Translations under genes and position numbers: made by a program
IMG/VR virus record: IMGVR_UViG_3300027741_000020
Strand: one strand, 5' to 3'
DNA: 64,000 bases
DNA from: a virus
Shown: one piece after another, positions 25,590 to 55,679 of the stretch
Layout: each line of letters begins with the position of its first letter
Numbering within the stretch: position 1 is the first letter of the stretch
The notes under the pieces: model-generated
The model's input: the letters and a program-made list of their open reading frames with translations, nothing else
What the model was told of the DNA's origin: nothing
The model's database searches: none

Positions 25590-26699
25590 ATGATAAAACT
25601 CACCGACTTACTAGAAAATATTATCAAAGAAGATGGCTCTGATAAACAATTCAAATTAAATGCCTCACAATATAAAGCATTTGGACAAATATTATCAAAT
25701 TTTGATGCCGATATTGATAGTATTACATTAAATATGGATGAGGCTCCAAAGCCTAACTATACAAAAATGACGCCTGATGAATTAGAAGCTAGTGGTGCCG
25801 TTGTTGCAATAGATAAATCCGTAATTAGTAATCTTAATAACTTTTTAGAAGAAGGAATGATTGCAAAGAACTGGTATGAGGATATGAATAAAAAAATGTT
25901 AGATGCACTTGGTGAATCCGATGGTTGCTTATTTTTAATATTAATGGCCATATTTTCACCTCAAAATAAATTATCTCAAAACTTTCTACTTGCAGCTAAA
26001 TGTTTTGAAGGTATAAAATCGGATATTAATGATTCAAACAAACGAGAAACATTTATAACAATGATTTCATTAGATGCAAATACGTTATATAATAAATTAA
26101 AGGCTGGCGAATATAAAGATATGGCATCTGTACAAAAAATAATACCACATTCATTGAGTGTAAGATCGTATCTTTCTAATCTAACTAGAGTATTGAGATT
26201 ATACGCAGCTAAAGGTTTTAAATTTAATAAGGCTGATGTTGTTGCCGAAATCGCTAAAGCATTTACACCAACGGGAGCACTTACAAAACAAACGGTAATA
26301 TCAGCTGAGAAAGTTTTTTCTTTTACTCTAAATCTTTTAGACCCTTCATATGAATTAGAAGGCGGTTGGCTGCCAGTTACAATGGATACCTGGATGGCAT
26401 CGTTTTTCTATCCACAAATGTCAAAAAAAGATAAAACAAAATTGTTAGGAAAAACTGCCAATTATGTATATATGGCAAAACTTACACAACAATTAGCAAG
26501 CAAATTTGGAATGAAACCAATAGAAATGCAAGCTATAATATGGGTAGCTAAAATTAAAGAAAAGCAAGGGGCAAATTACGATGTTACATTTGATAATGCG
26601 ATTAAAAAAAACCTTGATAAATTAAAAGTAAAAGTTGATGAAATGGGTGATATTAAAACATTTTATCAAAAAGTCATTAGCGTAGTTGGTAAATCATAA
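25590..26699 (+). CDS. Putative helical DNA-processing (glycosylase-like) protein with an MIKL leader
   Basis: WYE...LMAIFSPQ..., PVTMDTWM and MQAIIWV recall a phage family with HhH-glycosylase-like features; recalled, not searched. Confidence 0.45.
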   Translation: MIKLTDLLENIIKEDGSDKQFKLNASQYKAFGQILSNFDADIDSITLNMDEAPKPNYTKMTPDELEASGAVVAIDKSVISNLNNFLEEGMIAKNWYEDMNKKMLDALGESDGCLFLILMAIFSPQNKLSQNFLLAAKCFEGIKSDINDSNKRETFITMISLDANTLYNKLKAGEYKDMASVQKIIPHSLSVRSYLSNLTRVLRLYAAKGFKFNKADVVAEIAKAFTPTGALTKQTVISAEKVFSFTLNLLDPSYELEGGWLPVTMDTWMASFFYPQMSKKDKTKLLGKTANYVYMAKLTQQLASKFGMKPIEMQAIIWVAKIKEKQGANYDVTFDNAIKKNLDKLKVKVDEMGDIKTFYQKVISVVGKS

Positions 26700-26706: not shown

Positions 26707-26738
26707 TTTGGTAAATCCAAAAAAAAGTCGTATATTTA
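26707..26738 (+). promoter_or_regulatory. Bacteroidota-type sigma promoter (TTTG ... TATATTTA)
   Basis: Elements start at 26707 and 26731; ATG follows 4 nt later. Confidence 0.65.
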
Positions 26739-26742: not shown

Positions 26743-26943
26743 ATGAAATTAGTAGGAGAATCGCATCCAATGCATAAACTGACTGAAGTACAGGTTACGC
26801 AAATAAGGGATTTATGGAAAATTGGACATAGAAACATAAAAGTTCTTGCCAGAAATAATGGCGTATCTCAAACTAATATAAAAAAAATAGTTACAAACAA
26901 AACCTGGACGCACATGTTAAAGTGGCCGTATGAAAGAGTTTAA
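26743..26943 (+). CDS. Small helix-turn-helix protein
   Basis: KLTEVQVTQIR..LARNNGVSQTNIKKIV..KTW resembles the DNA-binding tail of HNH endonucleases. Confidence 0.7.
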   Translation: MKLVGESHPMHKLTEVQVTQIRDLWKIGHRNIKVLARNNGVSQTNIKKIVTNKTWTHMLKWPYERV

Positions 26944-27694
26944 TAAGTTATATTGTGATATTTCAAAGTTATCTATAAGACCTGTAAATAAATCCATAGC
27001 AAAAGACATAATAGTTAATAATCACTACAGTGGTATTTGGACTAAAGTATCTTATGCGTTGGGTTTGTTCTACACATCAGATGACTCACACCAATTCTTT
27101 AGCGGTGTTAATGAAAAGCTAATAGGGGTTGCCTGTTATGGTGACCCAGTCGGCAGACACTCCGGCGCATCAATTTCCGAAGTATTAGATAGGACAGAAG
27201 TATTAGAATTAACTCGTCTATTCGTATTTGACGGGTATGGTTCTAATATTGAAAGTTGGTTTGTAGGACAAACTTTCGATTGGTTACGTCAAAACGCATC
27301 CAATATCAAAGCACTTGTTTCATATTCCGACCCGAAAGCAGGTCACGTTGGAACTATTTACCAAGCAACAAATTGGATATATCAGGGTAATCGTATTAGG
27401 CCAAATGATAGTTGGAGCTTCAAATGGACTGAAGATGATGAATGGCATCATAGCCGGACATCATATGTTAAGTTCGGAACGAATGACCCGAAGATTATAC
27501 AAACAATGACATCGACTCCCTTTTGGATTAAAAAAGAACCACGTAAGCATAGGTATGTTTACATTCTTGCAGATAAGCGTGATAAGAAAAGAATATTGAA
27601 AGAATTAAAATATCCCTCGTTACCTTATCCAAAAACAAATGTGGAGTTTATTGAAGAAATACATAAATTAGAACCAATTGAAAGAGTTAAATAA
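26930..27694 (+). CDS. mom: Mom-family (GNAT-fold) DNA modification enzyme, paralog 1
   Basis: IIVNNHYS, LIGVACYG, LELTRL, LVSYSD..GHVGTIYQATNWIYQG, WHHSR, KHRY and PYPK parallel phage Mu Mom. Confidence 0.85.
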   Translation: MKEFNKLYCDISKLSIRPVNKSIAKDIIVNNHYSGIWTKVSYALGLFYTSDDSHQFFSGVNEKLIGVACYGDPVGRHSGASISEVLDRTEVLELTRLFVFDGYGSNIESWFVGQTFDWLRQNASNIKALVSYSDPKAGHVGTIYQATNWIYQGNRIRPNDSWSFKWTEDDEWHHSRTSYVKFGTNDPKIIQTMTSTPFWIKKEPRKHRYVYILADKRDKKRILKELKYPSLPYPKTNVEFIEEIHKLEPIERVK

Positions 27695-28481
27695 AATATA
27701 TTGCGATACATCAAGAGTATCAGTTAGAGAAATTGGCAAATCAGCTGCAAAAGAAATAATTGTAAAGAAACACTATACGCATGCGTGGACTGCGTGTAGA
27801 TACGCATTGGGCATATTCTATAAGACTGATGAAGTAACCGTATTAGGCGATAGTGATAAACTCATAGGAGTATTAGTATATGGATTTCCGGTTGGAGCTA
27901 GAGCAGCACTTTCAATATCGGAAACTCTTACAAAAGATAATGTATTGGAATTGACAAGACTTTATTGCGATGATGGATATGGCTCTAACATTGAAAGTTA
28001 TGCTATCGGACAATCGTTCAAATGGTTTAGAGAAAACGATAAAGCAATTAAGGTACTAATATCATATGCGGATAATGGGCAAGACCATTTAGGAGGAATA
28101 TACCAGGCAACAAATTGGATTTATCAGGGACCATCCACATCAATAGCACTGATGCCAAATTACGGAATATCACTTACGGAAAATCCATATAACTGGATTC
28201 ATAGTAGAACTGTTTATAGTATGTGGGGCTCTTCAAATTTAGAACATCTAAAAAGAGAAATTGGAAAAAATGGTTATCCAAAATTTTGGAGAAGAATGGA
28301 ATCCGGAAAACACAGATATATACAAGTCGTAGTAGCAGATAAAAAAGAAAAAAAAGCACTAATTAAAAGTTTAAAGCATAAAACTATACCATACCCAAAA
28401 TCCGCTGAATTGTATAATAAAGAAATAGAATGCCATATCACTATACCTCCTGAAAATAATATACAAAAATCTTTTTGGTAA
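27678..28481 (+). CDS. mom: Mom-family (GNAT-fold) DNA modification enzyme, paralog 2
   Basis: IIVKKHYT, LIGVLVYG, LELTRL, LISYAD..HLGGIYQATNWIYQG, WIHSR, KHRY and PYPK; TTG start overlapping paralog 1. Confidence 0.85.
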   Translation: MKELNKIYCDTSRVSVREIGKSAAKEIIVKKHYTHAWTACRYALGIFYKTDEVTVLGDSDKLIGVLVYGFPVGARAALSISETLTKDNVLELTRLYCDDGYGSNIESYAIGQSFKWFRENDKAIKVLISYADNGQDHLGGIYQATNWIYQGPSTSIALMPNYGISLTENPYNWIHSRTVYSMWGSSNLEHLKREIGKNGYPKFWRRMESGKHRYIQVVVADKKEKKALIKSLKHKTIPYPKSAELYNKEIECHITIPPENNIQKSFW

Positions 28482-28505
28482 TCTCAGGTATTTTTCGTAT
28501 ATTAC
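28474..28505 (+). promoter_or_regulatory. Bacteroidota-type sigma promoter (TTTG ... TATATTAC)
   Basis: Elements start at 28474 and 28498; ATG at 28509. Confidence 0.55.
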
Positions 28506-28508
28506 ATT

Positions 28509-29735
28509 ATGAAATTTTGGGAAACAGGCGAAACAGCCACAGCAGAAGTATTTGACTACAAAGCAATGAAAGAGAAGTTTATAGCAAATTTGGACTATCT
28601 TAAAACTATGTCAGTTGAAGAGCAAACACTATATAAAAAATGGATGGAATGGAACGAAGACCTACCAACTAATATGAAGCGTTTGCCAGTATTACAATCA
28701 CATTTTGATTCATTATGGCTACCAACCGATATTATGGATAAGGAATTGACTATCGCACAAATTCAAGCGCTAGACCCTTATGTTGAAATTGTTGAAGATA
28801 ATCCAAAGGAAGCAACTCGTTGGACGGATATTAGAAAGTTAATTCATACAATGGAGTTTCAGGCTAATCCAGGTCGTAATGTAAAATGCTATGTAAAGGA
28901 TAGGACTAGTGGTAAAATACTTGGACAGATTTGTTTAGGTAGTGATATTACTTCACTTGGTGTTCGTGATGGATATATTGGTTGGGGCAAGGAAGATAAG
29001 TTTAAGAATGGTAAGTTGAATAATACAACAATCGCAACTACAATCGTATCAACACAGCCATTTGGATATAACTTTTTGGGTGGTAAGTTAATCGCAGCGC
29101 TAGCAACATCGCCGGAGGTTAGAGATTATTGGAAGAAAAAATATGATAATGTGCTAATAGGTGTTGGTACAACTTCTCTTTACGGAATCCACTCACAATA
29201 TAATGGTATTCCACACTTTAAAACATTGGGTGAAAGTAAAGGCAAAATCAGTACAAAGCCAGATGATAAGGTGTATGACCCGTGGCACCAATGGTTAAAA
29301 GAAAATCGTGCAGATTGGTATAAAACACATATCCTATTAGAACGTGAAAGAAACGGAGCAAATATGGGTTATGAAAAAAACGGACCTGTAAGTGGTATTA
29401 AACAAAAGATTATTCAGGCTATATTCAAAGAGCTTGGAATTAAAGGAAACGCTTATGACCACGGATTTCAACGTGGTGTTTACTTCGCACAAATGTATGA
29501 TAATGGCAATGAGTTCCTATGTTCAAAGATAGATGAATCTCAATTAGTTCTTAAACAAAAGTTTGCAGAAGGAAACGCTTACACTGTAAAATGGTGGAAG
29601 GATAAAGCAATCAAACGCTATGAGAAAATGCATAGTGAAGGTAAAATCAAACCAGAAGCACTATTTTATGTAGATGCAATCGGAATGACTTGGGAAGGAA
29701 TGAAATCACATTATTTAAAAGAAGTAGGAAGATAA
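28509..29735 (+). CDS. DruA / DUF4338-like protein
   Basis: IVSTQPFGYNFLGGKLIAALATS, TTSLYG..SQYNG and LGESKG match my recollection of DruA/DUF4338 motifs. Confidence 0.7.
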   Translation: MKFWETGETATAEVFDYKAMKEKFIANLDYLKTMSVEEQTLYKKWMEWNEDLPTNMKRLPVLQSHFDSLWLPTDIMDKELTIAQIQALDPYVEIVEDNPKEATRWTDIRKLIHTMEFQANPGRNVKCYVKDRTSGKILGQICLGSDITSLGVRDGYIGWGKEDKFKNGKLNNTTIATTIVSTQPFGYNFLGGKLIAALATSPEVRDYWKKKYDNVLIGVGTTSLYGIHSQYNGIPHFKTLGESKGKISTKPDDKVYDPWHQWLKENRADWYKTHILLERERNGANMGYEKNGPVSGIKQKIIQAIFKELGIKGNAYDHGFQRGVYFAQMYDNGNEFLCSKIDESQLVLKQKFAEGNAYTVKWWKDKAIKRYEKMHSEGKIKPEALFYVDAIGMTWEGMKSHYLKEVGR

Positions 29736-29736
29736 T

Positions 29737-30843
29737 ATGAAATTTTGGGAAACAGAAGTTGATATAAACGCAAGAAAAGTTTTGGTTATACCAAATATTA
29801 CAAATTCACAAAATATAGAAAAGGACTCGTTTGTAGATGTTATATATAATCATATTTTAGGACTCAAAGAGTATGGTTCTTACTATTGGCACATACTATT
29901 ACCACAGCCAGTTAAAAAGCTAAATTTAGACAACGTAAAGCAACATATAATACCATTTTCAGGCGATATGATTAAAATGAGAACATATCCACCTGATATG
30001 AATAGATTGCTTGAAACATTGGATTATGATTCAATATACTCACATCTTCCAGACTGGCCTCAAGTTGGTAGATATAAAAATTCATTTGATACAAAAATAA
30101 TTGGATATTGCCATTGGTGGGAAATGAAAACCTGTAACGCTGAAGACCGTAAGAATAAATGGCGTTGGATGCCTATTGAATTACTTGGTGTATCACAAAT
30201 GGAAACTTGCTTTCTAAATACACAAGAACAAAAAGATAGGGTTTTGGCCGAAGCTAAAATGTGGTTCAATGATGAATTTGTTTCTAATTTAGATAATATA
30301 TTGACTGTTTGGAATTTGGGAATTGAAAAATCAAAAATTATAAAAGCTCCAACTAAAAAAGAAAAGATTATAGTTTTCAACCATAGAGCAGCCGCTTATA
30401 AAGGTTATCCGAAATTTATAGAATTAATGAAGGAATATAGAGAACGTAGGCAGGATTTCAAAGTATGGGTGCCACAATTAGATGGAAAGCCTGAAGTAAG
30501 TTGGATTGATAATACAAAAGTGGCAAAGCACGATTATTATAAAAAATTACAAAGTTGTACGGTTGGAATACAAATGAGGCAAACAAATTATGGGTGGAGT
30601 GTAGCAGCTACGGATTGTATGATGAATGGAACGCCGATGATATTTCAGGAATCAGAATGTTACAAAGAGATTGACCCTAATGGTTTATTTTTTAAATTCA
30701 AAAAAGACCTTTTTGAAATGTTAGATAAATTGTTGGATGATGGGGAATACATAACCAACCAATCGGTTAGAAGTATAGATAGAGCAAACGACTTGGCCTT
30801 AAATGATAAAAAAATGTTTGAGGTATTAAGTAAAAAATTGTAA
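29737..30843 (+). CDS. GT-B glycosyltransferase, candidate DNA-modifying
   Basis: IVFNHR..YKGY and GWSVAATDCMMNGTPMI donor-binding region; sits immediately before PolB. Confidence 0.75.
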   Translation: MKFWETEVDINARKVLVIPNITNSQNIEKDSFVDVIYNHILGLKEYGSYYWHILLPQPVKKLNLDNVKQHIIPFSGDMIKMRTYPPDMNRLLETLDYDSIYSHLPDWPQVGRYKNSFDTKIIGYCHWWEMKTCNAEDRKNKWRWMPIELLGVSQMETCFLNTQEQKDRVLAEAKMWFNDEFVSNLDNILTVWNLGIEKSKIIKAPTKKEKIIVFNHRAAAYKGYPKFIELMKEYRERRQDFKVWVPQLDGKPEVSWIDNTKVAKHDYYKKLQSCTVGIQMRQTNYGWSVAATDCMMNGTPMIFQESECYKEIDPNGLFFKFKKDLFEMLDKLLDDGEYITNQSVRSIDRANDLALNDKKMFEVLSKKL

Positions 30844-30851
30844 ATAACGAT

Positions 30852-33407
30852 ATGGCATATAAAAATATATATTACGAAAGAAATAAAAACCTTATGCATA
30901 TATGGGATGATGCAACCGGGTACACTACAATACCATACCGAAAATATGCGTATAAAAAAGACCCAAATGGACAGCATCGTTCAATGTATGGCGATAAATT
31001 GACTCGTATTGGTAAGTGGGAAAAAGATGATGCAGAAGACCTGTTTGAATCGGATGTACCAGAAACAACAAGAGTATTAGTGGATATGTACGATTCCGAT
31101 TTACCGTCAACAGGACATACTGTATTAACCTTTGATATTGAGGTTGAAATGATTACAGGATTACCAAATACTAGAGAAGCTAAAAACGAAATAACAGCAA
31201 TCGCTGCACAAGATAATATCAGTAGAGTGTACGATGTGTTTGTTTTAGATAAAAGCAAAAAAATTAAAAACAATGCTAAAAACTTTGATAAGGATGGTAG
31301 GAAAGTTAATGTTCACGTTTTCGATAACGAGAAAAATCTCCTACTTGCATTTCTTGATTATTACGAAGAAATTAACCCAACTATTTTAACCGGATGGAAT
31401 ATTGACTTCTTTGATATTCCATATCTTTACAATCGTATAAAAAATGTATGTAGTGAGGGACACGCTAAACGGCTTTCACCAATCGGACAATGTTTCTATT
31501 CACCATACCGTGAGAAGTGGAGTTTTGGTGGTGTGAGCATTTTGGACTACATTAACCTATATAAAACTTACACTTATACATTGGAAAGTAGCTACACACT
31601 TAACTATATTGCTACAAAGGAATTAGGGCGTGGTAAGGTTGAATACGAAGGTAATTTGGATGACCTCTTTGAAAATGATTTGGAAAAATTCATTGAGTAT
31701 AACATTGTGGATGTGGAGCTTGTAGCAGCGATGGATGATAAGTTACAATTCATTGAGTTATGTAGAGCAGTTTGTCACGCAGGGTTTGTACCATATGAAG
31801 ATTATATATTTTCTTCAAAGTGGTTGGAAGGAGCATGCTTGGGGTATCTTAAAAAGAAAGGATTAGTAGCAACAAATAAACCAAAAGACCGTAAGGAACG
31901 AATGCAGGCTCTACGTGATAACAATGAAGAGAAATTCATTGGAGCATATGTAAAGGAGCCTATTGTGGGCAAGTATGATTGGATTTATGATTTGGATTTG
32001 ACTTCTCTATATCCATCAATCATTATGACTTTGAATATTTCACCGGAAACAAAAGTAGGTAAGATTACAAATTGGAATCCAGAAGAATGGATAAAGGGAG
32101 AAGATAGGAACTATACGGTAGCAAATGAAACCGAACAATATGAATACTCTCGTCAGGAACTTGCTGATGTAATTAAAGATAGTAATTTGGGAGTAGCAGC
32201 AAATGGAGTTCTATATAATCAGGATAAACCCGGTCTAATTGCCGATATTCTTAATGATTGGTTTGATAAACGTGTTGAGTTTAGAAAACTTGAGAAAAAA
32301 TATGGTGAAGCCGGTGACACCGAAAAATATGAATTTTATGCAAAAAGACAATTGGTTCAAAAAATTCTTCTTAATTCTATGTATGGTGTTCTTGGTCTTC
32401 CTGCCTTTCGGTTTTATGATATTGATAATGCTGAAGCCGTTACGATTACAGGTCAAACGGTTATTAAAAAAACCGCCGAAATGGCTAACATAAAGTATTG
32501 GAAAGAACTTGGAACAAAAGATGATTACAATGTGTACATTGATACGGATTCAATTTATATGATGGCCGAACCATTGGTTAAACATAGGTTTCCTGATTAT
32601 AAAACATTTGACCAAGACCGAATGGCAACCGAAGTTAATACAATCGCCGAAGAAACTCAATCATTCTTAAATAAGTTTTACGATATATTGGCCGAAAGGT
32701 TTTTCTTTATACCGAAGGATAAGCATCGTTTTGAGATTAAAAAGGAGTATATAAGTAAAGCAGGATTTTGGGTGGCAAAAAAACGATATGCACAATGGAT
32801 GATTTTGAAAAACGGAATCAAATGTGATAAGCTTGATGTGAAAGGACTCGATGTAGTTCGTAGTTCGTTTCCAAAAGCATTTCAAACATTTATGGCAGGC
32901 ATACTAAAAGATATTCTAATGGGTAAATCGCATGAAGAAATCGATGAGAGCTTAATTCAGTTCAAAAAAAATATGCCAAACTTACCTGTAAATAAAATAG
33001 CAAAAGCTGGAGCAATTAAGGAATTAAGTAAGTATGATGATGGTAGTTGGAAGGTTGGACAAGCGGTTGGTGTATTTGAGAAAGGAACGCCTGCGCACGT
33101 TAAAGCCGGTATAGCATACAATCGTTTATTAAAATTCTTTAATTGTGCATATAAGCACGAACCAATTAGAGATGGTGATAAAGTAAAATGGGTATATCTT
33201 AAAAACAATCCATTAGGACTTGAAACTATGGCATTTAAAGATTATAATGACCCAACTGAAATATTGGAGTTCGTTGAAAACTATGTGGATAGGGGCGCAA
33301 TGTTTAAAGCAGAGCTAGAAAACAAAATTGATGACTTCTATACGGCATTAAAATGGGAAAAAGCAACAAATGAAGCAAAAACAGCTAAAAAATTCTTTGC
33401 ATTTTAA
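30852..33407 (+). CDS. Family B DNA polymerase (T4 gp43-like)
   Basis: Exonuclease motifs FDIE, GWNIDFFDIPY and YNIVDV; polymerase motifs DLTSLYPS, KILLNSMYG, YIDTDS and KKRYA. Confidence 0.97.
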   Translation: MAYKNIYYERNKNLMHIWDDATGYTTIPYRKYAYKKDPNGQHRSMYGDKLTRIGKWEKDDAEDLFESDVPETTRVLVDMYDSDLPSTGHTVLTFDIEVEMITGLPNTREAKNEITAIAAQDNISRVYDVFVLDKSKKIKNNAKNFDKDGRKVNVHVFDNEKNLLLAFLDYYEEINPTILTGWNIDFFDIPYLYNRIKNVCSEGHAKRLSPIGQCFYSPYREKWSFGGVSILDYINLYKTYTYTLESSYTLNYIATKELGRGKVEYEGNLDDLFENDLEKFIEYNIVDVELVAAMDDKLQFIELCRAVCHAGFVPYEDYIFSSKWLEGACLGYLKKKGLVATNKPKDRKERMQALRDNNEEKFIGAYVKEPIVGKYDWIYDLDLTSLYPSIIMTLNISPETKVGKITNWNPEEWIKGEDRNYTVANETEQYEYSRQELADVIKDSNLGVAANGVLYNQDKPGLIADILNDWFDKRVEFRKLEKKYGEAGDTEKYEFYAKRQLVQKILLNSMYGVLGLPAFRFYDIDNAEAVTITGQTVIKKTAEMANIKYWKELGTKDDYNVYIDTDSIYMMAEPLVKHRFPDYKTFDQDRMATEVNTIAEETQSFLNKFYDILAERFFFIPKDKHRFEIKKEYISKAGFWVAKKRYAQWMILKNGIKCDKLDVKGLDVVRSSFPKAFQTFMAGILKDILMGKSHEEIDESLIQFKKNMPNLPVNKIAKAGAIKELSKYDDGSWKVGQAVGVFEKGTPAHVKAGIAYNRLLKFFNCAYKHEPIRDGDKVKWVYLKNNPLGLETMAFKDYNDPTEILEFVENYVDRGAMFKAELENKIDDFYTALKWEKATNEAKTAKKFFAF

Positions 33408-33426
33408 AATATTTTTCGTATATTTA
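33396..33426 (+). promoter_or_regulatory. Bacteroidota-type sigma promoter (TTTG ... TATATTTA)
   Basis: Elements start at 33396 and 33419 (23 nt apart); upstream of the clamp gene. Confidence 0.55.
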
Positions 33427-33455
33427 CATTAACAATAAAATTTAAAACAACAAAT

Positions 33456-34169
33456 ATGAACAAACAAAATCTATTAAGATTTATTCAAAAGTATTCATTG
33501 GGAGGACTCATTGAATCGGTAGCGTGGAACGCTGAAGGTAACAAATTATCAGTAAGATTTATTTCTGATGATAAAACTCTATTAGGTGAAGTTGAGTTTA
33601 ATGCATTCACATCTAATACAATGAATGTTGGTATCTATACTACATCATTATTGAAAAATATGATTGGTATTTTGGATAGTGATATTACATTGAAAGTTGA
33701 TAAGGCTGGTGAGAAATCGGTATCTTTGAAATTATCATCAGATGAAACTGAAACATCATATCAATTGGCAGACTTAGGAGTTATTCCTCCAGTTCCGGAT
33801 TTAAAAGCAATGCCTGAATTTGGTATTAGTATTGAAATGGCTTCTACAATGATTGATAAATTCATTAAAGCAAAAGGAGCATTGAGTGATATTGATACAT
33901 TTACTGTATTTACCGAAGGTGGTGATTTGAAAATGGCAATCGGTTATTCTTCAATATCAACAAATAGAGTAACATTTAGTTGCCAGAAAGGATTTGAAGG
34001 CGATGTAAAACCAATTAGTTTTTCGGCAAAGTATTTAAAAGAAATCCTAACAGCAAACAAAGAAGCAACATCGGCAAAATTAAAAGTATCAACCGATGGT
34101 TTATCGCACGTTGAGTTTCAAATTGATGACTTCGTTTGTAAATATTATCTGGTTGAAATATCTAACTAA
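33456..34169 (+). CDS. Sliding clamp (T4 gp45 / PCNA-like)
   Basis: 237 aa after PolB; C-terminal FSAKYLKEIL...LKVS..GL..VEF...KYYLV pattern. Confidence 0.8.
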   Translation: MNKQNLLRFIQKYSLGGLIESVAWNAEGNKLSVRFISDDKTLLGEVEFNAFTSNTMNVGIYTTSLLKNMIGILDSDITLKVDKAGEKSVSLKLSSDETETSYQLADLGVIPPVPDLKAMPEFGISIEMASTMIDKFIKAKGALSDIDTFTVFTEGGDLKMAIGYSSISTNRVTFSCQKGFEGDVKPISFSAKYLKEILTANKEATSAKLKVSTDGLSHVEFQIDDFVCKYYLVEISN

Positions 34170-34940: not shown

Positions 34941-35573
34941 ATGATAATATACAAGGTAACTAATAAAGTAAATGGTAAAATTTATATAGGCAAAACAAAG
35001 CAACCATTATCAAAAAGAAAAGCAGCGCATTATGAAAGAGTAAAGTATAATTCTGTAACTAACTTTCATAATGCTCTACGATTCTATCCAAAAGATAATT
35101 TTATATGGGAAATTGAAATAAAATGCAAGGATGATATTGAATTAAATCAGTATGAAATGTATTTTATTAAAAAATATAACACATATAAAGACGGGTATAA
35201 TATGACAGAAGGAGGCGATGGTGGGTTTACATATAAGGTTGGTGATGAAATTTACAATAGAGTAAAAGATAAATTAGGCAAGTGGAAAAATGGAAATCCA
35301 GGAGCAACAAAAAACGCTATTGAAAAAAGATTAAAAACTTTTGAAACTGTAAAATGGAAAGCAGGGGAGTTGCATGGAAATTATGGCCATTCTCATAACA
35401 AAGGAATTTTAATTGGTATTAAAAACCCAATGGCTAAACCTATATTAATTGATGGGATTGAATATGAAACAATTTCAAAAGCAAGTATAACATTATCAAT
35501 ACCGGAATCAACTATCCGATATAGATGTAAATCAAAAAGATATAACAATTATAAATATAAAAACGAAATATGA
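34941..35573 (+). mobile_element. Free-standing GIY-YIG homing endonuclease (Seg-like)
   Basis: IIYKVTNKVNGKIYIGKT..RKAAH, E..FI and YNMTEGGDGG, with a C-terminal HTH-like ETISKAS..IPESTIRYRC; both flanking genes are intact. Confidence 0.88.
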
Positions 35574-36517
35574 GTTTTTTCGCAAATGAAAATAACAAAA
35601 AAGAGCATAGTTTATGGGTGGAACGCTACCGTCCTATGACTCTTTCCGAATATGTAGGAAATGAGATTGTAAAGGAAACGATACAACAATATTTGGACAC
35701 AAATGATATTCCACATCTTTTATTTTATGGTAAAGCCGGTACAGGCAAAACCACATTAGCAAAGTTGATAGTGAATACAATCAAATGTGACCATATGATA
35801 ATCAACGCATCCGATGAAAACAATGTAGATACGGTAAGAACGAAAGTAAAAAACTTCGCATCTTCGGTTGGTTTCGCAGGTTTCAAAGTGATTATCCTTG
35901 ATGAGTTTGATTATATGACTCCAAACGCACAGGCAATCCTTCGTAACTTAATGGAAACATTCAGTAAGCATTGCCGTTTCATTCTGACTTGTAACTACAT
36001 TGAGAAGATTATTGACCCTATACAAAGTCGTTGTCAATCATTCGCTATAACTCCACCAACTAAAAAGGATGTAGCAGTTCAGGTTACAAAGATACTTGAA
36101 GCTGAGAAGATTAAGTTTGACATTAAGAATGTAGCAGATATTATTAATTCATATTACCCAGATATTCGTAGGATATTAAACACTTGCCAACTACAATCGG
36201 CAAAGGGTGAGTTGAAAGTAGACCATAAAATAATGGTTGAATCGGACTTCAAATCAAAGTTAGTAGAACTCTTGAAATCCGGCGATGATAAGAGAAATCT
36301 ATTTCTTAAAATCAGACAATCAGTAGCAGATAATCGGCTTAATGATTATTCAGAAATGTATACAATGTTATATGAGAAGGTCGATGAATATGCGGCTGGT
36401 AATGTGGCAAACACAATACTTACTATTGCAGATGGTATTTCAAAAGATGCATTGGTAGTAGATAAAGAAATCGTATTTTGTTCAACTATAATCCAGATTT
36501 TGAATATCATAAAATAA
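35570..36517 (+). CDS. Clamp loader AAA+ subunit (gp44 / RFC-like)
   Basis: WVERYRP, GKAGTGKTT, INASD, IILDEFD and SRC motifs. Confidence 0.95.
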   Translation: MSFFANENNKKEHSLWVERYRPMTLSEYVGNEIVKETIQQYLDTNDIPHLLFYGKAGTGKTTLAKLIVNTIKCDHMIINASDENNVDTVRTKVKNFASSVGFAGFKVIILDEFDYMTPNAQAILRNLMETFSKHCRFILTCNYIEKIIDPIQSRCQSFAITPPTKKDVAVQVTKILEAEKIKFDIKNVADIINSYYPDIRRILNTCQLQSAKGELKVDHKIMVESDFKSKLVELLKSGDDKRNLFLKIRQSVADNRLNDYSEMYTMLYEKVDEYAAGNVANTILTIADGISKDALVVDKEIVFCSTIIQILNIIK

Positions 36518-36852: not shown

Positions 36853-37305
36853 ATGGCAGCCAAAAAGTTATTTGACCACTTAAACGCTATTACATCGGAG
36901 CAAAACCCCGACTATTTTAAAACATTGACCGAAGAGGATGTTAAAAGTTGGAGTAACTTTATGATTAATCGTTTTCTTTCAATGAAGCCGGAGTGGGTAG
37001 AATTGATTGCCACATTACTACCACTATCACAAACTCTTGAACCCGAAGAAATGTATAAGTTATACATAAATGTTCTTCCGAAAGGTAAGCAGTATTTAAA
37101 ATATACAAAGGGAAAAGCAGAAGATAAATATGAAAAATTTTTATTAGATTTAATAGTAAAACATTATCAATGCTCCGAAAGACAGGCAACCGATTATATA
37201 GAAGTATTGTATGCTACCAGAGAAGGTAGAGAAAATATAAAATATATATGTGAATTGTATGGCACTGATAAGAAAGAAATAGGTAAATTAAAATTGAAAA
37301 TATAG
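36853..37305 (+). CDS. Clamp loader A subunit (T4 gp62-like)
   Basis: FMINRFLSM, LPKGKQYLKY and HYQCSERQA..Y parallel gp62; near the gp44-like gene. Confidence 0.75.
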   Translation: MAAKKLFDHLNAITSEQNPDYFKTLTEEDVKSWSNFMINRFLSMKPEWVELIATLLPLSQTLEPEEMYKLYINVLPKGKQYLKYTKGKAEDKYEKFLLDLIVKHYQCSERQATDYIEVLYATREGRENIKYICELYGTDKKEIGKLKLKI

Positions 37306-37336
37306 TTGGTAAATCCAACTATTTTTCGTATATTTA
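37305..37336 (+). promoter_or_regulatory. Bacteroidota-type sigma promoter (GTTG ... TATATTTA)
   Basis: Elements start at 37305 and 37329. Confidence 0.6.
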
Positions 37337-37352
37337 CTTAAATAAAGAAGTT

Positions 37353-38225
37353 ATGGCTAGAGTATCATTTTCGCAATATAGTATGTGGAGTGGATGTCCA
37401 CAACAATACAAATTAGCATATATAGATAACCTAAAAACAGGTGGTGGGAGTATTCATACTCTATTTGGAACGGCAATGCATGAAACCATACAAGAATACC
37501 TTGATAAGTGTTTAAGGATATCAAAATCGCAAGCCGATAAGCTAATGGATTTAAAAGAAACTCTTAAATTAAAAATGAGAGAGTGTTACTTAAAAGAGGT
37601 TGAAGGCGAAATAGGCAACGAAGAAATATGTACCAAAGAAGAACTTGTTGAATTTTTGCAAGACGGAAATACCATATTAGAGTATTTTCAAAAATCAAAA
37701 AACTTCAACAAGTTCTTTTCTTTAAAGCATGATGAATTAGTTGCAATAGAGCAACCATTAAACGTAAAATTAGCAGATAATGTTAATTTTATAGGATTTA
37801 TAGATTTGGTTATACGAGATAACTTCAATGGTAGGTATCGTATTATAGATTTAAAAACATCTACAAAGGGATGGAGCAAATATCAAAAATCAGATCCAGT
37901 TAAGAATGCACAAATACTAATATATAAAAAGTTTTATGCAGAGCTCCTAAGTGTATCTCCTGATATTATTGATGTGGAGTTTATTATCCTTAAAAGAAAG
38001 GTAATGGATAACGCAGAATTTGTTATTCCGAGAATATCAAAGCATATTCCAGCAAACGGCAAACCATCTATAAATAAAGCATGGAATAACTTTAAAGAGT
38101 TCGTAGATACGGTATTTGATGTAGAAGGAAACTATAAAACCGATATAGAATATCCAAAAAAACCATCAAAACTTTGTATGTATTGTGAGTTCTTTGAGCG
38201 TGGATTGTGTGATGCAAAAAAATAA
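37353..38225 (+). CDS. PD-(D/E)XK (RecB/Cas4-like) nuclease
   Basis: SFSQY..W..CP, FGTAMHETI, GFIDL, IIDLKT, QILIY and C-terminal CMYCEF..LC. Confidence 0.88.
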   Translation: MARVSFSQYSMWSGCPQQYKLAYIDNLKTGGGSIHTLFGTAMHETIQEYLDKCLRISKSQADKLMDLKETLKLKMRECYLKEVEGEIGNEEICTKEELVEFLQDGNTILEYFQKSKNFNKFFSLKHDELVAIEQPLNVKLADNVNFIGFIDLVIRDNFNGRYRIIDLKTSTKGWSKYQKSDPVKNAQILIYKKFYAELLSVSPDIIDVEFIILKRKVMDNAEFVIPRISKHIPANGKPSINKAWNNFKEFVDTVFDVEGNYKTDIEYPKKPSKLCMYCEFFERGLCDAKK

Positions 38226-38253
38226 AATAAACAATAATTATATTAAACAAGTT

Positions 38254-39630
38254 ATGAAAAAAAAGAAAATTTTGTTACTTTCGGATGATTTAAGAATGGC
38301 AAGTGGTATTGCTAATGTTTCCAAACAATTGGTTTTGGGAACTGTAGATAAGTATGATTGGGTACAATTGGGAGCAGCAATCAATCATCCCGAAGAAGGA
38401 AAGATGTTGGACTTAAGCGAAGATATAAAACGTGCTACGGGAGTAACCGATGCATCAGTTAAAATAATACCGTTCAATGGATATGGCAATGCAGATGTTA
38501 TACGCCAATTAATTATGGTGGAGCAACCAGATGCAATCTTACACTTCACAGACCCACGTTATTGGATTTGGTTATATGATATTGAACATGAGATACGCCA
38601 ATCAGTACCTTTGTTTTTCTATCATATATGGGATGACCTTCCGGATCCAAAATATAATCGTGATTACTACGAAAGTTGTGATTGGATAGGTTGTATTTCA
38701 AAACAAACATATGGTATAACCAAACGTGTATACGGCTCAACTGCCGAACCACAATGGGACTCTGCAAAGGATTGGCAAGTTAGCTATGTACCACACGGTA
38801 TTAATTCGGAATTGTATAAGCCAGTAGATGTACCGGCTGATTTTAAGAAAAATATACTTGGTGGTAAAGAATACGATTTTGTATTATATTGGAATAATAG
38901 AAATATCCGTAGAAAGCAATCAACTGATATTATACTTGCATTTGAAGATTTTGTAAAAGAATTGCCAAAAGAAAAACGTGATAAGATTTGTTTATTAATG
39001 CATACAAAACCTGTAGATGAAAACGGAACGGATTTGTATACTGTAATAAAAGATTGCGCACCAAATTCAACCGTTATATTCGACCAAACTAATTATACAG
39101 AACTTGAGTTGAATTACCTATATAACATAGCAGATGTTACAATTAATGTGGCTTCAAATGAAGGATTTGGATTAGCAACGGCTGAAAGTATTATGGCAGG
39201 TACACCGATAATAGTAAATGTTACCGGCGGATTGCAAGACCAATGTGGATTTGAAATAGACGGTAAGTATCTTACAGCAGATGATTATATAACGATTGGT
39301 TCATTGCACAATAAAAAGAAATATGAAAAAATTAAACATGGCGAATGGGTAAAGCCAATTTTTCCAGTTCGTTCAACGGCAGGTTCAATTCTAACTCCAT
39401 ATATTTTTGATGATAGAGTTGATTACGCTGATATTACTCCTTTAATCAGAGAATGGTACGAAACTCCAAAAGAGGATAGAAAATCCGCAGGATTGGCAGG
39501 TAGAGATTGGTTATTAGGCGAAGGTGGATTGAGTACGCAAAATATGTGTAAAACATTAATAGACGGAATGGAAACGGCATTTGAAAATTGGCAACCAAGA
39601 AAAAAATATAAATTATACAAATTAGGATAA
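38254..39630 (+). CDS. GT-B glycosyltransferase (GT4-like)
   Basis: SGIANVS, YVPHGIN, NNRNIRRK and NEGFGLATAESIMAGTP. ATG 38254 preferred. Confidence 0.85.
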   Translation: MKKKKILLLSDDLRMASGIANVSKQLVLGTVDKYDWVQLGAAINHPEEGKMLDLSEDIKRATGVTDASVKIIPFNGYGNADVIRQLIMVEQPDAILHFTDPRYWIWLYDIEHEIRQSVPLFFYHIWDDLPDPKYNRDYYESCDWIGCISKQTYGITKRVYGSTAEPQWDSAKDWQVSYVPHGINSELYKPVDVPADFKKNILGGKEYDFVLYWNNRNIRRKQSTDIILAFEDFVKELPKEKRDKICLLMHTKPVDENGTDLYTVIKDCAPNSTVIFDQTNYTELELNYLYNIADVTINVASNEGFGLATAESIMAGTPIIVNVTGGLQDQCGFEIDGKYLTADDYITIGSLHNKKKYEKIKHGEWVKPIFPVRSTAGSILTPYIFDDRVDYADITPLIREWYETPKEDRKSAGLAGRDWLLGEGGLSTQNMCKTLIDGMETAFENWQPRKKYKLYKLG

Positions 39631-41552: not shown

Positions 41553-42179
41553 ATGAAATTAAGCTACGCAGTTACAGTATGTAATGAGTTTGAAGAAACT
41601 ATAAATCTTATTACTAATCTATTAAATTATAAATCTGAAAATTCAGAAGTAGTTGTATTATTAGATACACCAAAAGCATCACAAGAACTTATTGATTATT
41701 TAGAAGTTTTAGCAAGTGCAAACAAAATAGAATTGATTGAATCCGAATTTACAGGAGATTTTGCAAAATGGAAAAACTTTTTAAATTCACAATGTAAGGG
41801 TGAGTGGATTTTCCAATTAGATGCCGATGAATCTCTTAATAGGGATCTTATTGTTAATTTGGAAGATATACTTACGGATAATTCCGATAAAGAATTGGTA
41901 GTAGTACCACGTATAAACATTGTAAATGGTATTACGCCAGAGCATATTGAGAAATGGGGTTGGCAACAAAATGAGAGAGGTTGGATAAACTTTCCCGATG
42001 TACAAACCAGAATATATAAAAATATTCCTGAAAAAATTGGATGGACTGGAAAGGTTCACGAACGAATAGTTGGATTTGAATCATATACAACGTTTCCAGG
42101 TGAAGAAATATTTTGTATAAGACATGTTAAAGATATCCAAAGACAAGAACGACAAAACAATTATTATAATACATTATGA
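41553..42179 (+). CDS. GT2-like glycosyltransferase
   Basis: SYAVTVCNE, WKNFLN..CKGEWIFQLDADE and FPDVQTRIY. Confidence 0.85.
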   Translation: MKLSYAVTVCNEFEETINLITNLLNYKSENSEVVVLLDTPKASQELIDYLEVLASANKIELIESEFTGDFAKWKNFLNSQCKGEWIFQLDADESLNRDLIVNLEDILTDNSDKELVVVPRINIVNGITPEHIEKWGWQQNERGWINFPDVQTRIYKNIPEKIGWTGKVHERIVGFESYTTFPGEEIFCIRHVKDIQRQERQNNYYNTL

Positions 42180-43063
42180 GGATAACATTCATTTATGCTT
42201 ACGATGGTGAGCAATGGTCTACTCCAATGGCTTTGGTTAATGAATTTAAAAATCGTGGTTGGGAAACCGATATAATCTCAATAGGTTCAAATAAAACGGG
42301 CATATACGATGACGCACAATTACAACTTTGGATTCAACAAGATTTGCCTACGGATATTGTATTATTTATGGATTGGGGCAGATTTGATTCTAAATGGTTG
42401 GATAAAAGTCTAAAACCAAACGCATTTTGGATACAAGAAAGTGGAGATGACCCACAAAACTTTGAAAGAAACTTTCCAAAATCAAATCGTTTTCATTTTA
42501 CAATTACACCAGACCACGATTCATATTTAGAATATAAAAGACGTGGTATAGATGCAGAATGGGTAACGCATTTTGCAGATACCGCAATTCAATATCCTAT
42601 GGGATTGGAGCCGGAATATGTTGCAGTTACCACTAGAGGATTTGGTAATTCTCAATTTTTAGATTATCTTACTCAATGGGCAGACGGAGCAATTGGCAAT
42701 CGTAATGGCATGAATGGGATTGAGCATACTGAATTTCTTAATAAAGGATTAATGGTTATACAAAATAGTCGATGGGGAGAAATTACTCGTAGAATATTTG
42801 AAGCTATGGCATGTGGTAAAATGGTTATAACAGATAAATTACCACCCAATAAAAAATTATCCGAAATGTTTATAGATGGTAAAGATATAATTTATTATGA
42901 GCCAAATGATATGTTTGGTTGTATAGAAAAGATGAATTATTACAATGAAAATGAGGAAGAACGTGAAATAATTGCACATAATGGAATGCAAAAAGTTTTA
43001 GAAAATTATACACAAGTTCAAATAGTTGATAAATTGATTGAAAAATATAAAAATTTTAAATAA
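42176..43063 (+). CDS. CgeB-like GT-B glycosyltransferase
   Basis: ITRRIFEAMACG and REIIAHNG..KVLENYT. Confidence 0.8.
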   Translation: MRITFIYAYDGEQWSTPMALVNEFKNRGWETDIISIGSNKTGIYDDAQLQLWIQQDLPTDIVLFMDWGRFDSKWLDKSLKPNAFWIQESGDDPQNFERNFPKSNRFHFTITPDHDSYLEYKRRGIDAEWVTHFADTAIQYPMGLEPEYVAVTTRGFGNSQFLDYLTQWADGAIGNRNGMNGIEHTEFLNKGLMVIQNSRWGEITRRIFEAMACGKMVITDKLPPNKKLSEMFIDGKDIIYYEPNDMFGCIEKMNYYNENEEEREIIAHNGMQKVLENYTQVQIVDKLIEKYKNFK

Positions 43064-43758: not shown

Positions 43759-43767
43759 TAAAAAGAT

Positions 43768-44520: not shown

Positions 44521-44523
44521 ATT

Positions 44524-48458: not shown

Positions 48459-48462
48459 AAAT

Positions 48463-49653: not shown

Positions 49654-49659
49654 AAATAA

Positions 49660-49691
49660 TTTGGTAATTTGATATATTTTACATATATTTG
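49660..49691 (+). promoter_or_regulatory. Bacteroidota-type sigma promoter (TTTG ... TATATTTG)
   Basis: Elements start at 49660 and 49684; internal promoter before fabH. Confidence 0.65.
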
Positions 49692-49705
49692 TTAAAATAA
49701 ACATA

Positions 49706-50641: not shown

Positions 50642-50647
50642 TATAAT

Positions 50648-51292: not shown

Positions 51293-51293
51293 A

Positions 51294-54024: not shown

Positions 54025-54030
54025 TAAAAA

Positions 54031-55677: not shown

Positions 55678-55679
55678 TT

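What the first reader, a model, noticed from the sequence alone, without database searches (positions are those of the whole stretch)
26743..34169. Candidate replisome-coupled DNA hypermodification system: Mom + Mom + DruA-like + GT-B ahead of PolB and clamp
Seen: an uninterrupted run of HTH, two Mom-like GNAT enzymes, a DUF4338/DruA-like protein, a GT-B glycosyltransferase, PolB and the sliding clamp. Known: Mu Mom makes N6-carbamoylmethyladenine to resist restriction, and T4-like phages glycosylate bases with GT-B enzymes. Inferred: these four enzymes build an unusual, possibly multi-step, base modification on nascent DNA. I do not know of this combination being characterised.
Basis: partly seen in the sequence, partly recalled or inferred. 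Interest (0 to 1): 0.88.

Follow-up and report, generated by a model that had tools for sequence, protein, structure and literature searches.

The report
Phage DNA-modification genes beside the replisome
An uncultured freshwater T4-like phage carries two Mom-type adenine-modifying enzymes, a Mom-like acyltransferase of the DruA family and a glycosyltransferase among its replication genes; three of them bear the same short end-tag as the phage's polymerase and clamp loader, which suggests they ride on the sliding clamp.

Summary
All seven genes lie at the stated coordinates on one strand, with gaps of 48 nt or less. Both Mom genes score E about 1e-43 and keep the catalytic residues of Mu Mom. 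The DruA-like protein passes the Pfam and PADLOC DruA models, and its model is a GNAT whose best solved match is Mu Mom (Z 9.9). The glycosyltransferase has a GT4-like GT-B fold (Z 26).

In 80 related viral contigs the block breaks into separable units:
- A small HTH gene with Mom1 and Mom2, where Mom1 is optional.
- The DruA-like gene, with or without a GT. The GT is absent in 13 loci and exchanged or moved in 9.

The Mom pair can lie about 18 kb from the DruA-like gene. This argues against one obligatory four-step pathway.

A new point partly rescues "replisome-coupled". Mom2 (C-terminus), the DruA-like protein and the GT (N-termini) share a terminal F-W tag on flexible tails. PolB (C-terminus) and the clamp loader (N-terminus) carry the sister F-F tag. 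In relatives so do an inserted DNA methylase (C-terminal F-F) and a 250-aa protein (N-terminal F-W). The background rate is 2%. Clamp docking is inferred, not shown.

The scan's first readers noted this cassette and tag on this and other genomes.

The parts
26708..26735 (+). Promoter-like motif (TTGGTAA, 14 nt, TCGTATAT), copy 1, just upstream of the HTH-Mom1-Mom2 unit
   Evidence: The pattern occurs 3 times in the window against 0.01 expected from shuffles. Its function as a promoter is inferred.
26743..26943 (+). 66-aa probable helix-turn-helix protein. It overlaps the Mom1 start by 14 nt and travels with the Mom genes in relatives.
   Evidence: ORF. No Pfam or PHROG hit. Atlas neighbours are Resolvase-HTH/HTH_7/HTH_3 at 0.93. 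It lies directly upstream of Mom1, or of Mom2 where Mom1 is absent, in related loci.
26930..27694 (+). Mom1, a Mom-family GNAT of 254 aa with no terminal F-W tag
   Evidence: Pfam Mom E 8e-44 and PHROG 1384 E 1.5e-52. phmmer to Mu Mom structure 8BV8 gives E 1.2e-9. The residues matching Mu H58, Y59, R111, S124, D149 and Y159 are invariant.
27678..28481 (+). Mom2, a Mom-family GNAT of 267 aa, 46% identical to Mom1. It has an extra C-terminal acidic linker ending in F-W.
   Evidence: Pfam Mom E 7.5e-44. Paralogy with Mom1. The same catalytic residues are invariant. The C-terminal F-W is present in 51 of 55 orthologous ORFs.
28475..28502 (+). Promoter-like motif, copy 2, upstream of the DruA-like, GT and PolB genes
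28509..29735 (+). DruA/DUF4338-family GNAT of 408 aa with an N-terminal M-K-F-W-E tag on a disordered tail
   Evidence: Pfam DruA E 7e-18. PADLOC DruA1 E 1.2e-20, colinear over residues 119-368. AlphaFold model pLDDT 91.3, with residues 1-9 below 50. The best of 48,161 PDB chains is Mu Mom 8bv8_B at Z 9.9 with 173 residues aligned. The N-terminal tag is present in 77 of 82 orthologous ORFs.
29737..30843 (+). GT4-like GT-B glycosyltransferase of 368 aa with the same N-terminal M-K-F-W-E tag
   Evidence: Model pLDDT 88.3, residues 1-5 below 50. Foldseek E 4e-14 to GT4 enzymes. VIA Z 26.3 to a mannosyltransferase, 24.6 to MshA and 22.2 to the phage HY126 DNA glycosyltransferase. The tag is present in 57 of 58 orthologous ORFs, including the 30%-identical alternative GT.
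30852..33407 (+). Family B DNA polymerase (gp43-like) with a C-terminal K-K-F-F-A-F tail
   Evidence: Pfam and PHROG 262 E 4e-184. 48% identical to the Microcystis phage Mel-JY01 PolB. The tail is conserved in 66 of 71 ORFs.
33456..34169 (+). Probable sliding clamp (gp45-like, 237 aa)
   Evidence: Weak PCNA_C hit at E 0.007. The only PDB profile hit is an archaeal PCNA at E 0.14. It lies between PolB and the clamp loader, and this position is conserved in relatives.
35570..36517 (+). Clamp-loader large subunit (gp44-like) with an N-terminal M-S-F-F-A tag
   Evidence: AAA and DNA_pol3_delta2 hits. The N-terminal F-F tag is present in 54 of 69 orthologous ORFs.
36853..37305 (+). Clamp-loader small subunit (gp62-like)
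   Evidence: Pfam Phage_clamp_A E 4e-12.

Best explanation
The block is an accessory DNA-modification island inside the replisome operon of an uncultured freshwater T4-like myovirus. It is built from two separable units, each preceded by the same promoter-like motif.

Unit 1 is a small HTH protein plus the paralogs Mom1 and Mom2. By homology with Mu Mom, these enzymes take an aminoacyl group from a charged tRNA and put it on N6 of adenine in double-stranded DNA. The result is a carbamoylmethyl-type adduct that blocks restriction. The two paralogs most likely differ in DNA context or in aminoacyl donor, or they pair as a heterodimer.

Unit 2 is a DruA/DUF4338-family GNAT, with an optional, exchangeable GT4-like glycosyltransferase in many relatives. 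It most likely installs a second, independent acyl mark on DNA, with or without a sugar. The donor and the target base are unknown.

Mom2, the DruA-like protein and the GT each carry a short aromatic-acidic end-tag on a flexible tail. The tag is of the same type as those on the phage's PolB (C-terminus) and clamp loader (N-terminus). I infer that these tags dock the enzymes on the sliding clamp, so that new DNA is marked just behind the fork.

Shown: the genes, the families, the folds, the catalytic residues, the synteny pattern and the motif census. Inferred: any chemistry on DNA, the role in escaping restriction, and clamp binding.
For: Mom1 and Mom2:
- Pfam E about 1e-43.
- The residues matching Mu H58, Y59, R111, S124, D149 and Y159 are invariant across 17 diverse Moms. 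Their roles are taken from PMC13219725.

DruA-like protein:
- The Pfam and PADLOC DruA models are passed.
- The GNAT model has pLDDT 91, and Mu Mom is the top hit among 48,161 chains (Z 9.9, 173 residues aligned, against 8.7 or less for generic GNATs).
- DUF4338 was independently called a GNAT in PMC10853773.
- Relatives are fused to ParB_N and DUF3102.
- In L045 a short DruA-family gene occupies the Mom1 slot.
- DNA methylase genes are inserted at the same places in L007 and L037.

GT: GT-B fold with Z 26.3.

Modularity: 80 loci fall into seven architectures. The Mom pair lies 18-19 kb from the DruA-like gene in G004 and G007. The promoter-like motif occurs 3 times against 0.01 expected.

Motif census:
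- DruA-like 77/82, PolB 66/71, GT 57/58, clamp loader 54/69, Mom2 51/55.
- 250-aa insert 8/11, DNA methylase 2/2.
- Other ORFs 8/431, clamp 0/70, Mom1 1/39.
- The tails have low pLDDT.
- In a distant clade both the PolB tail and the DruA-like head read F-F-D.

T4 precedent: the clamp's ligands are the clamp loader and the hydrophobic-acidic termini of gp43, gp55 and gp33, held on divergent unstructured linkers (PMC2988020).
Against: - There is no direct evidence that any of the four proteins acts on DNA in this phage.
- The residue matching Mu R151, which is essential in Mu Mom, is K in Mom1 and not conserved in Mom2.
- Profile-profile comparison of the DruA-like and Mom families is not significant (E 0.05 and 0.075). 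The structural lead of Mom over generic GNATs is only about 1 Z unit.
- The best structural matches of the GT act on small molecules or glycans. A known phage DNA glycosyltransferase ranks lower, at Z 22.2.
- The window also holds a sugar and glycan biosynthesis cluster of more than 20 kb, so a glycosyltransferase here need not act on DNA.
- The identity of the clamp gene rests on weak hits.
- Plasticity hot spots in T4-like replication modules collect unrelated cargo, such as the GIY-YIG endonuclease at 34941-35573. Adjacency alone therefore proves little.
- The loci were collected with the DruA-like protein as query, so co-occurrence with Mom is biased.
Confidence: 0.5

Rival explanations
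1. One reading: all four enzymes act in series to build one complex hypermodified base. For example, Mom adds an aminoacyl group, the DruA-like GNAT adds or caps a further acyl group, and the GT glycosylates the product.
For: The full order HTH, Mom1, Mom2, DruA-like, GT, PolB is the commonest architecture. All four near-complete related genomes carry two Moms as well as the DruA-like gene. Three of the four enzymes share the end-tag. The closest cultured relative, Mel-JY01, lacks the block ahead of its PolB. It also appears in none of the listed rows of the DruA-like and Mom protein searches, and the GT search found nothing in any phage record.
Against: The GT is absent in 13 of 80 loci, and in 9 it is replaced by a 30%-identical one on the other side of the DruA-like gene. 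Mom1 is absent in 7 loci. The Mom pair and the DruA-like/GT pair lie 18-19 kb apart in one clade. Each unit has its own promoter-like motif. DruA-like genes have no Mom gene beside them in the two pelagiphages whose neighbourhoods were read. The cyanomyovirus and pelagiphage matches lie under single genes, and those hosts are not among the named hosts of Mom hits. Mu Mom needs no partner enzyme (PMC13219725).
Confidence: 0.15
2. The Mom pair modifies DNA, but the DruA-like GNAT and the GT do not. They acylate or glycosylate a protein, a small molecule, a tRNA or a host or virion glycan, for example as an anti-defence or host-takeover function. They sit near PolB only because that region is a cargo hot spot.
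For: The top structural matches of the GT are MshA, BshA, sucrose-phosphate synthase and polysaccharide glycosyltransferases. GNATs acylate very diverse acceptors. The island is hypervariable, with several unrelated inserts of unknown function. The phage has a large glycan cluster that could supply unusual sugar donors for non-DNA targets.
Against: Mom is the nearest solved fold to the DruA-like protein. DruA-like domains are fused to ParB_N and DUF3102, and published contexts are DNA-centred (Druantia, DndF). A DruA-family gene replaces Mom1 in L045, and DNA methylases insert in the same slots. The end-tag is shared with PolB, the clamp loader and a DNA methylase.
Confidence: 0.2
3. The terminal F-W/F-F tags are real but do not bind the clamp. 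They could dock on PolB or another hub, target proteins into the prohead as T4 capsid-targeting sequences do, or reflect constraints on translation starts.
For: No binding could be shown. The N-terminal tags begin M-K, then aromatic residues, then an acidic one. From my own knowledge, this loosely recalls the N-terminal capsid-targeting peptides of T4 internal proteins. The 20 identical bases at the two gene starts are largely what codon bias would give.
Against: The tag is at the C-terminus in Mom2, PolB and the methylase, so a start-codon or N-terminal targeting signal cannot explain all cases. The two proteins expected from T4 biology to bind the clamp, PolB and the clamp loader, both carry it (PMC2988020).
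Confidence: 0.15

Closest known systems
Bacteriophage Mu Mom (methylcarbamoylase; PDB 8BV8; PMC13219725)
   Same: Mom1 and Mom2 belong to the same Pfam family, have the same GNAT core with the Mom-specific insertion, and keep H58, Y59, R111, S124, D149 and Y159. As with com in Mu, a small upstream ORF overlaps the first Mom gene.
   Different: There are two tandem paralogs, 46% identical, in a lytic-type T4-like phage. All 310 cultured phage records with a Mom hit have a single copy. R151 is not conserved. Mom2 has an extra C-terminal tail ending in F-W. The upstream ORF looks like an HTH, whereas Com is, from my own knowledge, a zinc-finger translational activator.
DruA (DUF4338) of type I Druantia anti-phage defence
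   Same: The protein passes the Pfam DruA and PADLOC DruA1 models, and the match runs colinear over most of its length. The biochemical role of the family is unknown in both settings.
   Different: It is encoded by a phage, not a bacterial defence island. No DruB-E genes are present. It carries an N-terminal aromatic-acidic tag and lies next to PolB, the clamp or the clamp loader in several phage lineages.
Phage DNA glycosyltransferases (T4 alpha/beta-glucosyltransferases; the HY126/RB69-type arabinosyltransferase acting on 5-hydroxycytosine, PMC13326640)
   Same: All are GT-B enzymes encoded by T4-like phages. The HY126 enzyme aligns to the model at Z 22.2 over 327 residues.
   Different: Cellular GT4 enzymes match better, at Z 24-26. 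There is no sequence match to any of 50,697 cultured phage records. No hydroxylated or hydroxymethylated pyrimidine pathway was seen. The ThyA-family genes of relatives score like ordinary thymidylate synthases, at 311 bits.
T4/RB69 sliding-clamp ligands (the gp43, gp55 and gp33 C-terminal hydrophobic-acidic tails, and the gp44/62 clamp loader; PMC2988020)
   Same: These are short aromatic-acidic peptides at a protein terminus, joined by a variable, unstructured linker. The motif is present on PolB and the clamp loader of the same phage.
   Different: Here the tag is F-W or F-F next to K/D/E and is used at either the N- or the C-terminus. It sits on DNA-modifying enzymes (Mom, a GNAT, a GT, a methylase), and I found no T4 precedent for clamp ligands of that kind. 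Binding is untested.

Membership tests
Mom family (Pfam PF25680) | Full-length match to the family model above the curated cut-off | tested here: met
   Mom1 scores 150.1 bits and Mom2 150.2 bits against a cut-off of 27.1, covering profile positions 2-202 of 202. phmmer to 8BV8 gives E 1.2e-9.
Mom family (Pfam PF25680) | Active-site residues shown to matter in Mu Mom: H58, Y59, R111, S124, D149, Y159 | tested here: met
   The matching columns (H32, Y33, R96, S109, D134, Y144 in Mom1 numbering) are invariant in 19 orthologs and in 17 diverse Moms. Residue roles are from PMC13219725.
Mom family (Pfam PF25680) | R151, essential in Mu Mom | tested here: not met
   Two residues after the conserved D, Mom1 has K (V in one ortholog) and Mom2 has G, F or E. 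The mapping was made by eye from the alignment.
Mom family (Pfam PF25680) | Aminoacyl-tRNA-dependent acylation of N6-adenine in dsDNA | not testable with these tools
   This needs expression followed by nucleoside LC-MS/MS.
DruA / DUF4338 (Pfam PF14236, PADLOC DruA1) | Match to the family models | tested here: met
   Pfam gives 65.2 bits against a cut-off of 27. PADLOC PDLC00002 gives E 1.2e-20, matching residues 119-368 to profile positions 120-369 of 407.
Type I Druantia defence system | DruA encoded together with DruB, DruC, DruD and the DruE helicase | tested here: not met
   No other Dru model hit among the eight proteins scanned. All neighbours are phage replication genes. The genome is a T4-like phage.
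GNAT superfamily (for the DruA-like protein) | GNAT core fold | tested here: met
   The model has pLDDT 91.3. 228 PDB chains reach Z >= 5, and every listed match is a GNAT-type acyltransferase, led by Mom at Z 9.9. Foldseek gives acetyltransferases only.
Specific Mom/DruA sister relationship | Sequence-profile similarity between the two families | tested here: inconclusive
   hhalign gives E 0.049 and 0.075, probability about 1%. The only support is the structural ranking.
GT-B glycosyltransferases, GT4-like | Two-Rossmann-domain GT-B fold | tested here: met
   VIA Z 26.3 with 333 residues aligned (7qsg), plus MshA at 24.6 and BshA at 24.7. Foldseek E 4e-14.
GT-B glycosyltransferases, GT4-like | Pfam Glycos_transf_1 above the curated cut-off | tested here: not met
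   22.4 bits against a cut-off of 26.4. An R...K-G pair at 217-223 and D293 are invariant in the alignment. I read these as the donor-binding positions from my own knowledge of GT4 motifs.
Phage DNA glycosyltransferases | Closer to a known DNA-acting GT than to cellular GTs, and a matching modified-base pathway in the genome | tested here: inconclusive
   The HY126 enzyme reaches Z 22.2, below the cellular GT4 enzymes. No phage record matches by sequence. Only an ordinary-looking ThyA was found in relatives. Whole genomes were not fully annotated.
T4-type sliding-clamp ligands | Short hydrophobic-acidic peptide at a terminus, on a flexible linker, shared with the polymerase of the same phage | tested here: met
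   Termini and census. The tails have low pLDDT. The T4 description is in PMC2988020.
T4-type sliding-clamp ligands | Physical binding to the clamp | not testable with these tools
   This needs peptide-clamp binding assays or a structure.

The most novel reading that the evidence does not exclude
This phage group uses its sliding clamp as a tool-belt for DNA hypermodification. A family of otherwise unrelated enzymes each carries a PolB-like terminal F-W/F-F tag that tethers it to the clamp: Mom2, a DruA-family GNAT, two GT4 subfamilies, an N6/N4 methylase and a 250-aa protein of unknown function. Several different marks would then be written directly behind the fork. By extension, the DruA/DUF4338 family, including Druantia DruA, would be a Mom-like enzyme that acylates DNA.
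Probability: 0.3. Interest if true: 0.85.

Novelty: new variant of a known kind. Interest (0 to 1): 0.72.

Why it matters
Mom-type adenine hypermodification was explained mechanistically only in 2026, and for a single enzyme working alone.

This locus would extend that picture in three ways:
- It shows paired Mom paralogs.
- It places a third, DruA-family GNAT in the same setting. That gives a testable biochemical hypothesis for DruA, the unexplained component of type I Druantia defence.
- It suggests how a phage could couple several DNA marks to replication, through clamp-binding tags. I found no description of such coupling for phage hypermodification enzymes.

The tag would also serve as a simple sequence handle for finding further clamp-tethered DNA-modifying enzymes in T4-like phage genomes. 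The proteins are abundant in freshwater and marine viromes: 1038 cluster representatives of the DruA-like protein reach E <= 0.001.

Tried and rejected
- A complex prediction of the clamp (alignment A4) with residues 1-40 of the DruA-like protein (alignment A5) gave no verdict, with score 0.19 against a mark of 0.32. It counts neither for nor against binding.
- Profile-profile comparison of the DruA-like and Mom families was not significant, even after adding six diverse cultured-phage Moms.
- Pairwise BLASTP of Mom1 and Mom2 against the DruA-like protein found nothing.
- The generic sigma-70 promoter and terminator scan of 24.3-36.6 kb gave no more sites than shuffled sequence.
- A search for a gp55-like late sigma factor in five related genomes, to read its clamp-binding tail, found no credible match.
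- No whole genome is held for the window.
- The sequencing-run search found only assembled contigs from freshwater metagenomes and listed no RNA holder.
- Paper searches for DUF4338 with Mom, and for Mom-like with glycosyltransferase, returned nothing. The DruA-with-GNAT search returned only irrelevant papers.
- The YprA/Druantia preprint does not describe the DruA protein.
- I considered that the 20 identical bases at the starts of the DruA-like and GT genes mark a DNA-level repeat or recombination joint. I rejected this because the upstream DNA differs and the codons are the favoured ones.
- T4 alpha- and beta-glucosyltransferases did not appear among the listed structural matches of the GT.


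Full report
**What is there.** The window is part of a T4-like myovirus.
- It encodes tail sheath, tail tube and baseplate proteins.
- It encodes gp32, a UvsX/RecA protein, a 5'-3' exonuclease, a DnaB-like helicase, ribonucleotide reductase, PhoH and thioredoxin.
- The seven genes of the finding follow, then dUTPase, a GIY-YIG homing endonuclease and both clamp-loader subunits.
- All of these are on the + strand, and no tRNA gene is present.
- The nearest cultured phage is Microcystis phage Mel-JY01, with 48% PolB identity.
- Near-identical DNA occurs in freshwater metagenomes of several studies.

**The Mom pair.**
- Mom1 and Mom2 both match Pfam Mom over its whole length at E about 1e-43. They are 46% identical to each other.
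- Mu Mom is now known to be a dimeric GNAT. It transfers glycine from Gly-tRNA(Gly) to N6 of adenine in double-stranded DNA, and the adduct then rearranges to 6-NcmdA.
- In Mu Mom R111, S124, D149 and R151 are essential, and H58, Y59 and Y159 are important (PMC13219725).
- All of these except R151 are invariant in Mom1, Mom2, their orthologs in related contigs and six Moms of unrelated cultured phages.
- Mom1 and Mom2 form two distinct orthologous groups, each conserved across the clade. The duplication is therefore old and both copies are maintained.
- Among 310 cultured phage records with a Mom hit, each has only one. The tandem pair is thus unusual.

**The DruA-like protein.**
- It passes the Pfam DruA and PADLOC DruA1 models.
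- An alignment of 52 diverse relatives gave a confident model with pLDDT 91.3.
- An exhaustive structural comparison with 48,161 PDB representatives put Mu Mom first: Z 9.9, 173 residues aligned, model residues 83-340. Ordinary GNATs followed at Z 8.7 or less with fewer aligned residues.
- The lead is modest, and profile-profile comparison finds no significant sequence similarity. I therefore claim a GNAT fold whose nearest solved relative is Mom, not proven sisterhood.
- DUF4338 has independently been called a GNAT domain (PMC10853773).
- Longer relatives carry N-terminal ParB_N or DUF3102 domains.
- Homologs occur in pelagiphages and many cyanomyoviruses. In the two pelagiphages I read, no Mom gene lies beside them.

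**The glycosyltransferase.**
- Pfam barely sees it, but the model (pLDDT 88.3) is a GT4-like GT-B.
- It reaches Z 26.3 to a mycobacterial mannosyltransferase and 24-25 to MshA, BshA and PimB'.
- It reaches Z 22.2 to the phage HY126 glycosyltransferase. The paper I read names HY126 among phages that carry arabinosylated 5-hydroxycytosine in their DNA (PMC13326640).
- The acceptor cannot be read from the fold.
- No cultured phage record matches it by sequence.

**Synteny.** The DruA-like protein retrieved 80 IMG/VR loci at 59-97% identity. I mapped all neighbours in them.
- The full order seen in the window is the commonest.
- Seven loci lack Mom1.
- Thirteen loci lack the GT.
- Nine loci have a different GT, 30% identical, upstream of the DruA-like gene.
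- Several loci have unrelated ORFs inserted inside the block. These include an N6/N4 DNA methylase and a weak GmrSD_N-like protein.
- Eleven loci read PolB, clamp, DruA-like, GT, clamp loader.
- Five loci keep HTH, Mom1, Mom2 and the GT before PolB but place the DruA-like gene after the clamp.
- Two loci have tandem DruA-like genes.
- In genomes of the PolB-clamp-DruA-like-GT type, the Mom pair lies 18-19 kb away.
- More distant phages again place a DruA-like gene next to the clamp or the clamp loader. One of them has a Mom gene between the two clamp-loader subunits.
- In L045 a short DruA-family gene sits in the Mom1 slot.
- Mel-JY01 lacks the block ahead of its PolB.
- A promoter-like motif precedes the HTH gene and, separately, the DruA-like gene. 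It occurs three times in the window against 0.01 expected.

Together this shows two separable units and an optional GT. It does not show a fixed four-step pathway.

**The end-tag.**
- The DruA-like protein and the GT are unrelated, yet both begin M-K-F-W-E-T. Mom2 ends in F-W.
- Under the strict search (F-W within 8 residues of a terminus), these are the only three of 74 ORFs in the window that qualify.
- Under a broader two-aromatic pattern, six of the 74 ORFs qualify. They are these three, PolB (C-terminal K-K-F-F-A-F), the clamp loader (N-terminal M-S-F-F-A) and one stray ORF.
- Across the related loci the tag is present in the following counts:

| Protein family | ORFs with the tag |
|---|---|
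| DruA-like | 77 of 82 |
| PolB | 66 of 71 |
| GT, including the divergent alternative GT | 57 of 58 |
| Clamp loader | 54 of 69 |
| Mom2 | 51 of 55 |
| 250-aa protein inserted between PolB and the clamp | 8 of 11 |
| Inserted DNA methylase (one ends almost exactly like PolB) | 2 of 2 |
| Unassigned ORFs | 8 of 431 |
| Clamp | 0 of 70 |
| Mom1 | 1 of 39 |

- These counts are supported.
- The tagged termini are disordered in the models.
- In a distant clade both the PolB tail and the DruA-like head read F-F-D.
- In T4 the ligands of the sliding clamp are the clamp loader and the hydrophobic-acidic termini of gp43, gp55 and gp33. These termini sit on divergent, unstructured linkers and are interchangeable (PMC2988020).
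- The simplest reading is that these tags are clamp-docking peptides and that the accessory enzymes are clamp clients. This is an inference. The one complex prediction I could run gave no verdict, and the clamp gene itself is identified only weakly.

**Verdict.** The Mom assignment is strong. The DruA-like and GT assignments to DNA are plausible but unproven.
- The single-pathway idea is not favoured.
- Replisome coupling is newly supported by the shared tag.
- The scan's first readers had already noted the tag in this genome and the same cassette in other genomes. Here the tag's conservation, specificity and extension to PolB, the clamp loader, a methylase and a fourth enzyme family were measured.
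- I rate it a new variant of known kinds (Mom-type modification and clamp-ligand tails) with clear experimental tests.

Noticed in passing
window 41553-60137 (probably to 64000): A sugar-nucleotide and glycan biosynthesis cluster of more than 20 kb in a low-GC stretch. It holds GT2, a GT1-like enzyme, an FkbM methyltransferase, two DegT-type aminotransferases, a FabH-like ketosynthase, an SDR, a GNAT, three epimerases/dehydratases, a sugar C-methyltransferase and a GT11 fucosyltransferase-like enzyme. Its target (virion, host surface or DNA) is unknown.
   Followed up: partly
window 37306-39630: The third copy of the promoter-like motif precedes a PD-(D/E)XK nuclease (37353-38225) and a 481-aa protein that matches Pfam GT4-conflict, the 'family 4 glycosyltransferase in conflict systems' (38185-39630). 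This may be another conflict-related pair under the same regulation as the Mom and DruA-like units.
   Followed up: partly
L007:6002-6925 and L037:3484-4395: N6/N4 DNA methylase genes are inserted into the island in relatives, one between PolB and the clamp and one between Mom2 and the DruA-like gene. Their C-termini end in K-K-F-F-A-L and D-K-F-F, almost the PolB tail.
   Followed up: partly
L009:12906-13664, L052:10354-11100, L079:11730-12476 and others: A conserved protein of about 250 aa with no reliable family is inserted between PolB and the clamp in about a dozen relatives. It starts with an L-K-F-W type tag and is a fourth tagged family. It is absent from the window.
   Followed up: partly
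L045:6441-7169: A short 242-aa DruA-family protein (Pfam DruA E 2.8e-26) with an N-terminal S-F-F-D tag occupies the position of Mom1, between the HTH gene and Mom2.
   Followed up: partly
window 25590-26699: The 369-aa DUF7178 gene directly upstream of the HTH gene has no counterpart in any of the 80 related loci. It looks like a private insertion of this genome.
   Followed up: partly
window 34941-35573: A GIY-YIG homing endonuclease with an I-TevI-type DNA-binding domain lies between the dUTPase and the clamp loader. This shows that the region is an insertion hot spot.
   Followed up: no
L099 (Microbacterium phage Lifes), L100, L096: In unrelated cultured phages a small ORF, annotated as an HTH in Lifes, also sits directly upstream of and abutting the Mom-like gene. 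In Lifes the pair lies next to DNA polymerase I. The 'small ORF plus Mom' layout of Mu com-mom may be general.
   Followed up: no
P0246, P0257, P0259, P0276, P0390: Longer DruA-family proteins from metagenomes carry N-terminal ParB_N or DUF3102 domains. One carries LAGLIDADG, NUMOD3 and HTH_7 modules downstream.
   Followed up: partly
window 16260-16976: An Asp/Asn beta-hydroxylase-like 2OG oxygenase lies just upstream of gp32. Its substrate is unknown.
   Followed up: no
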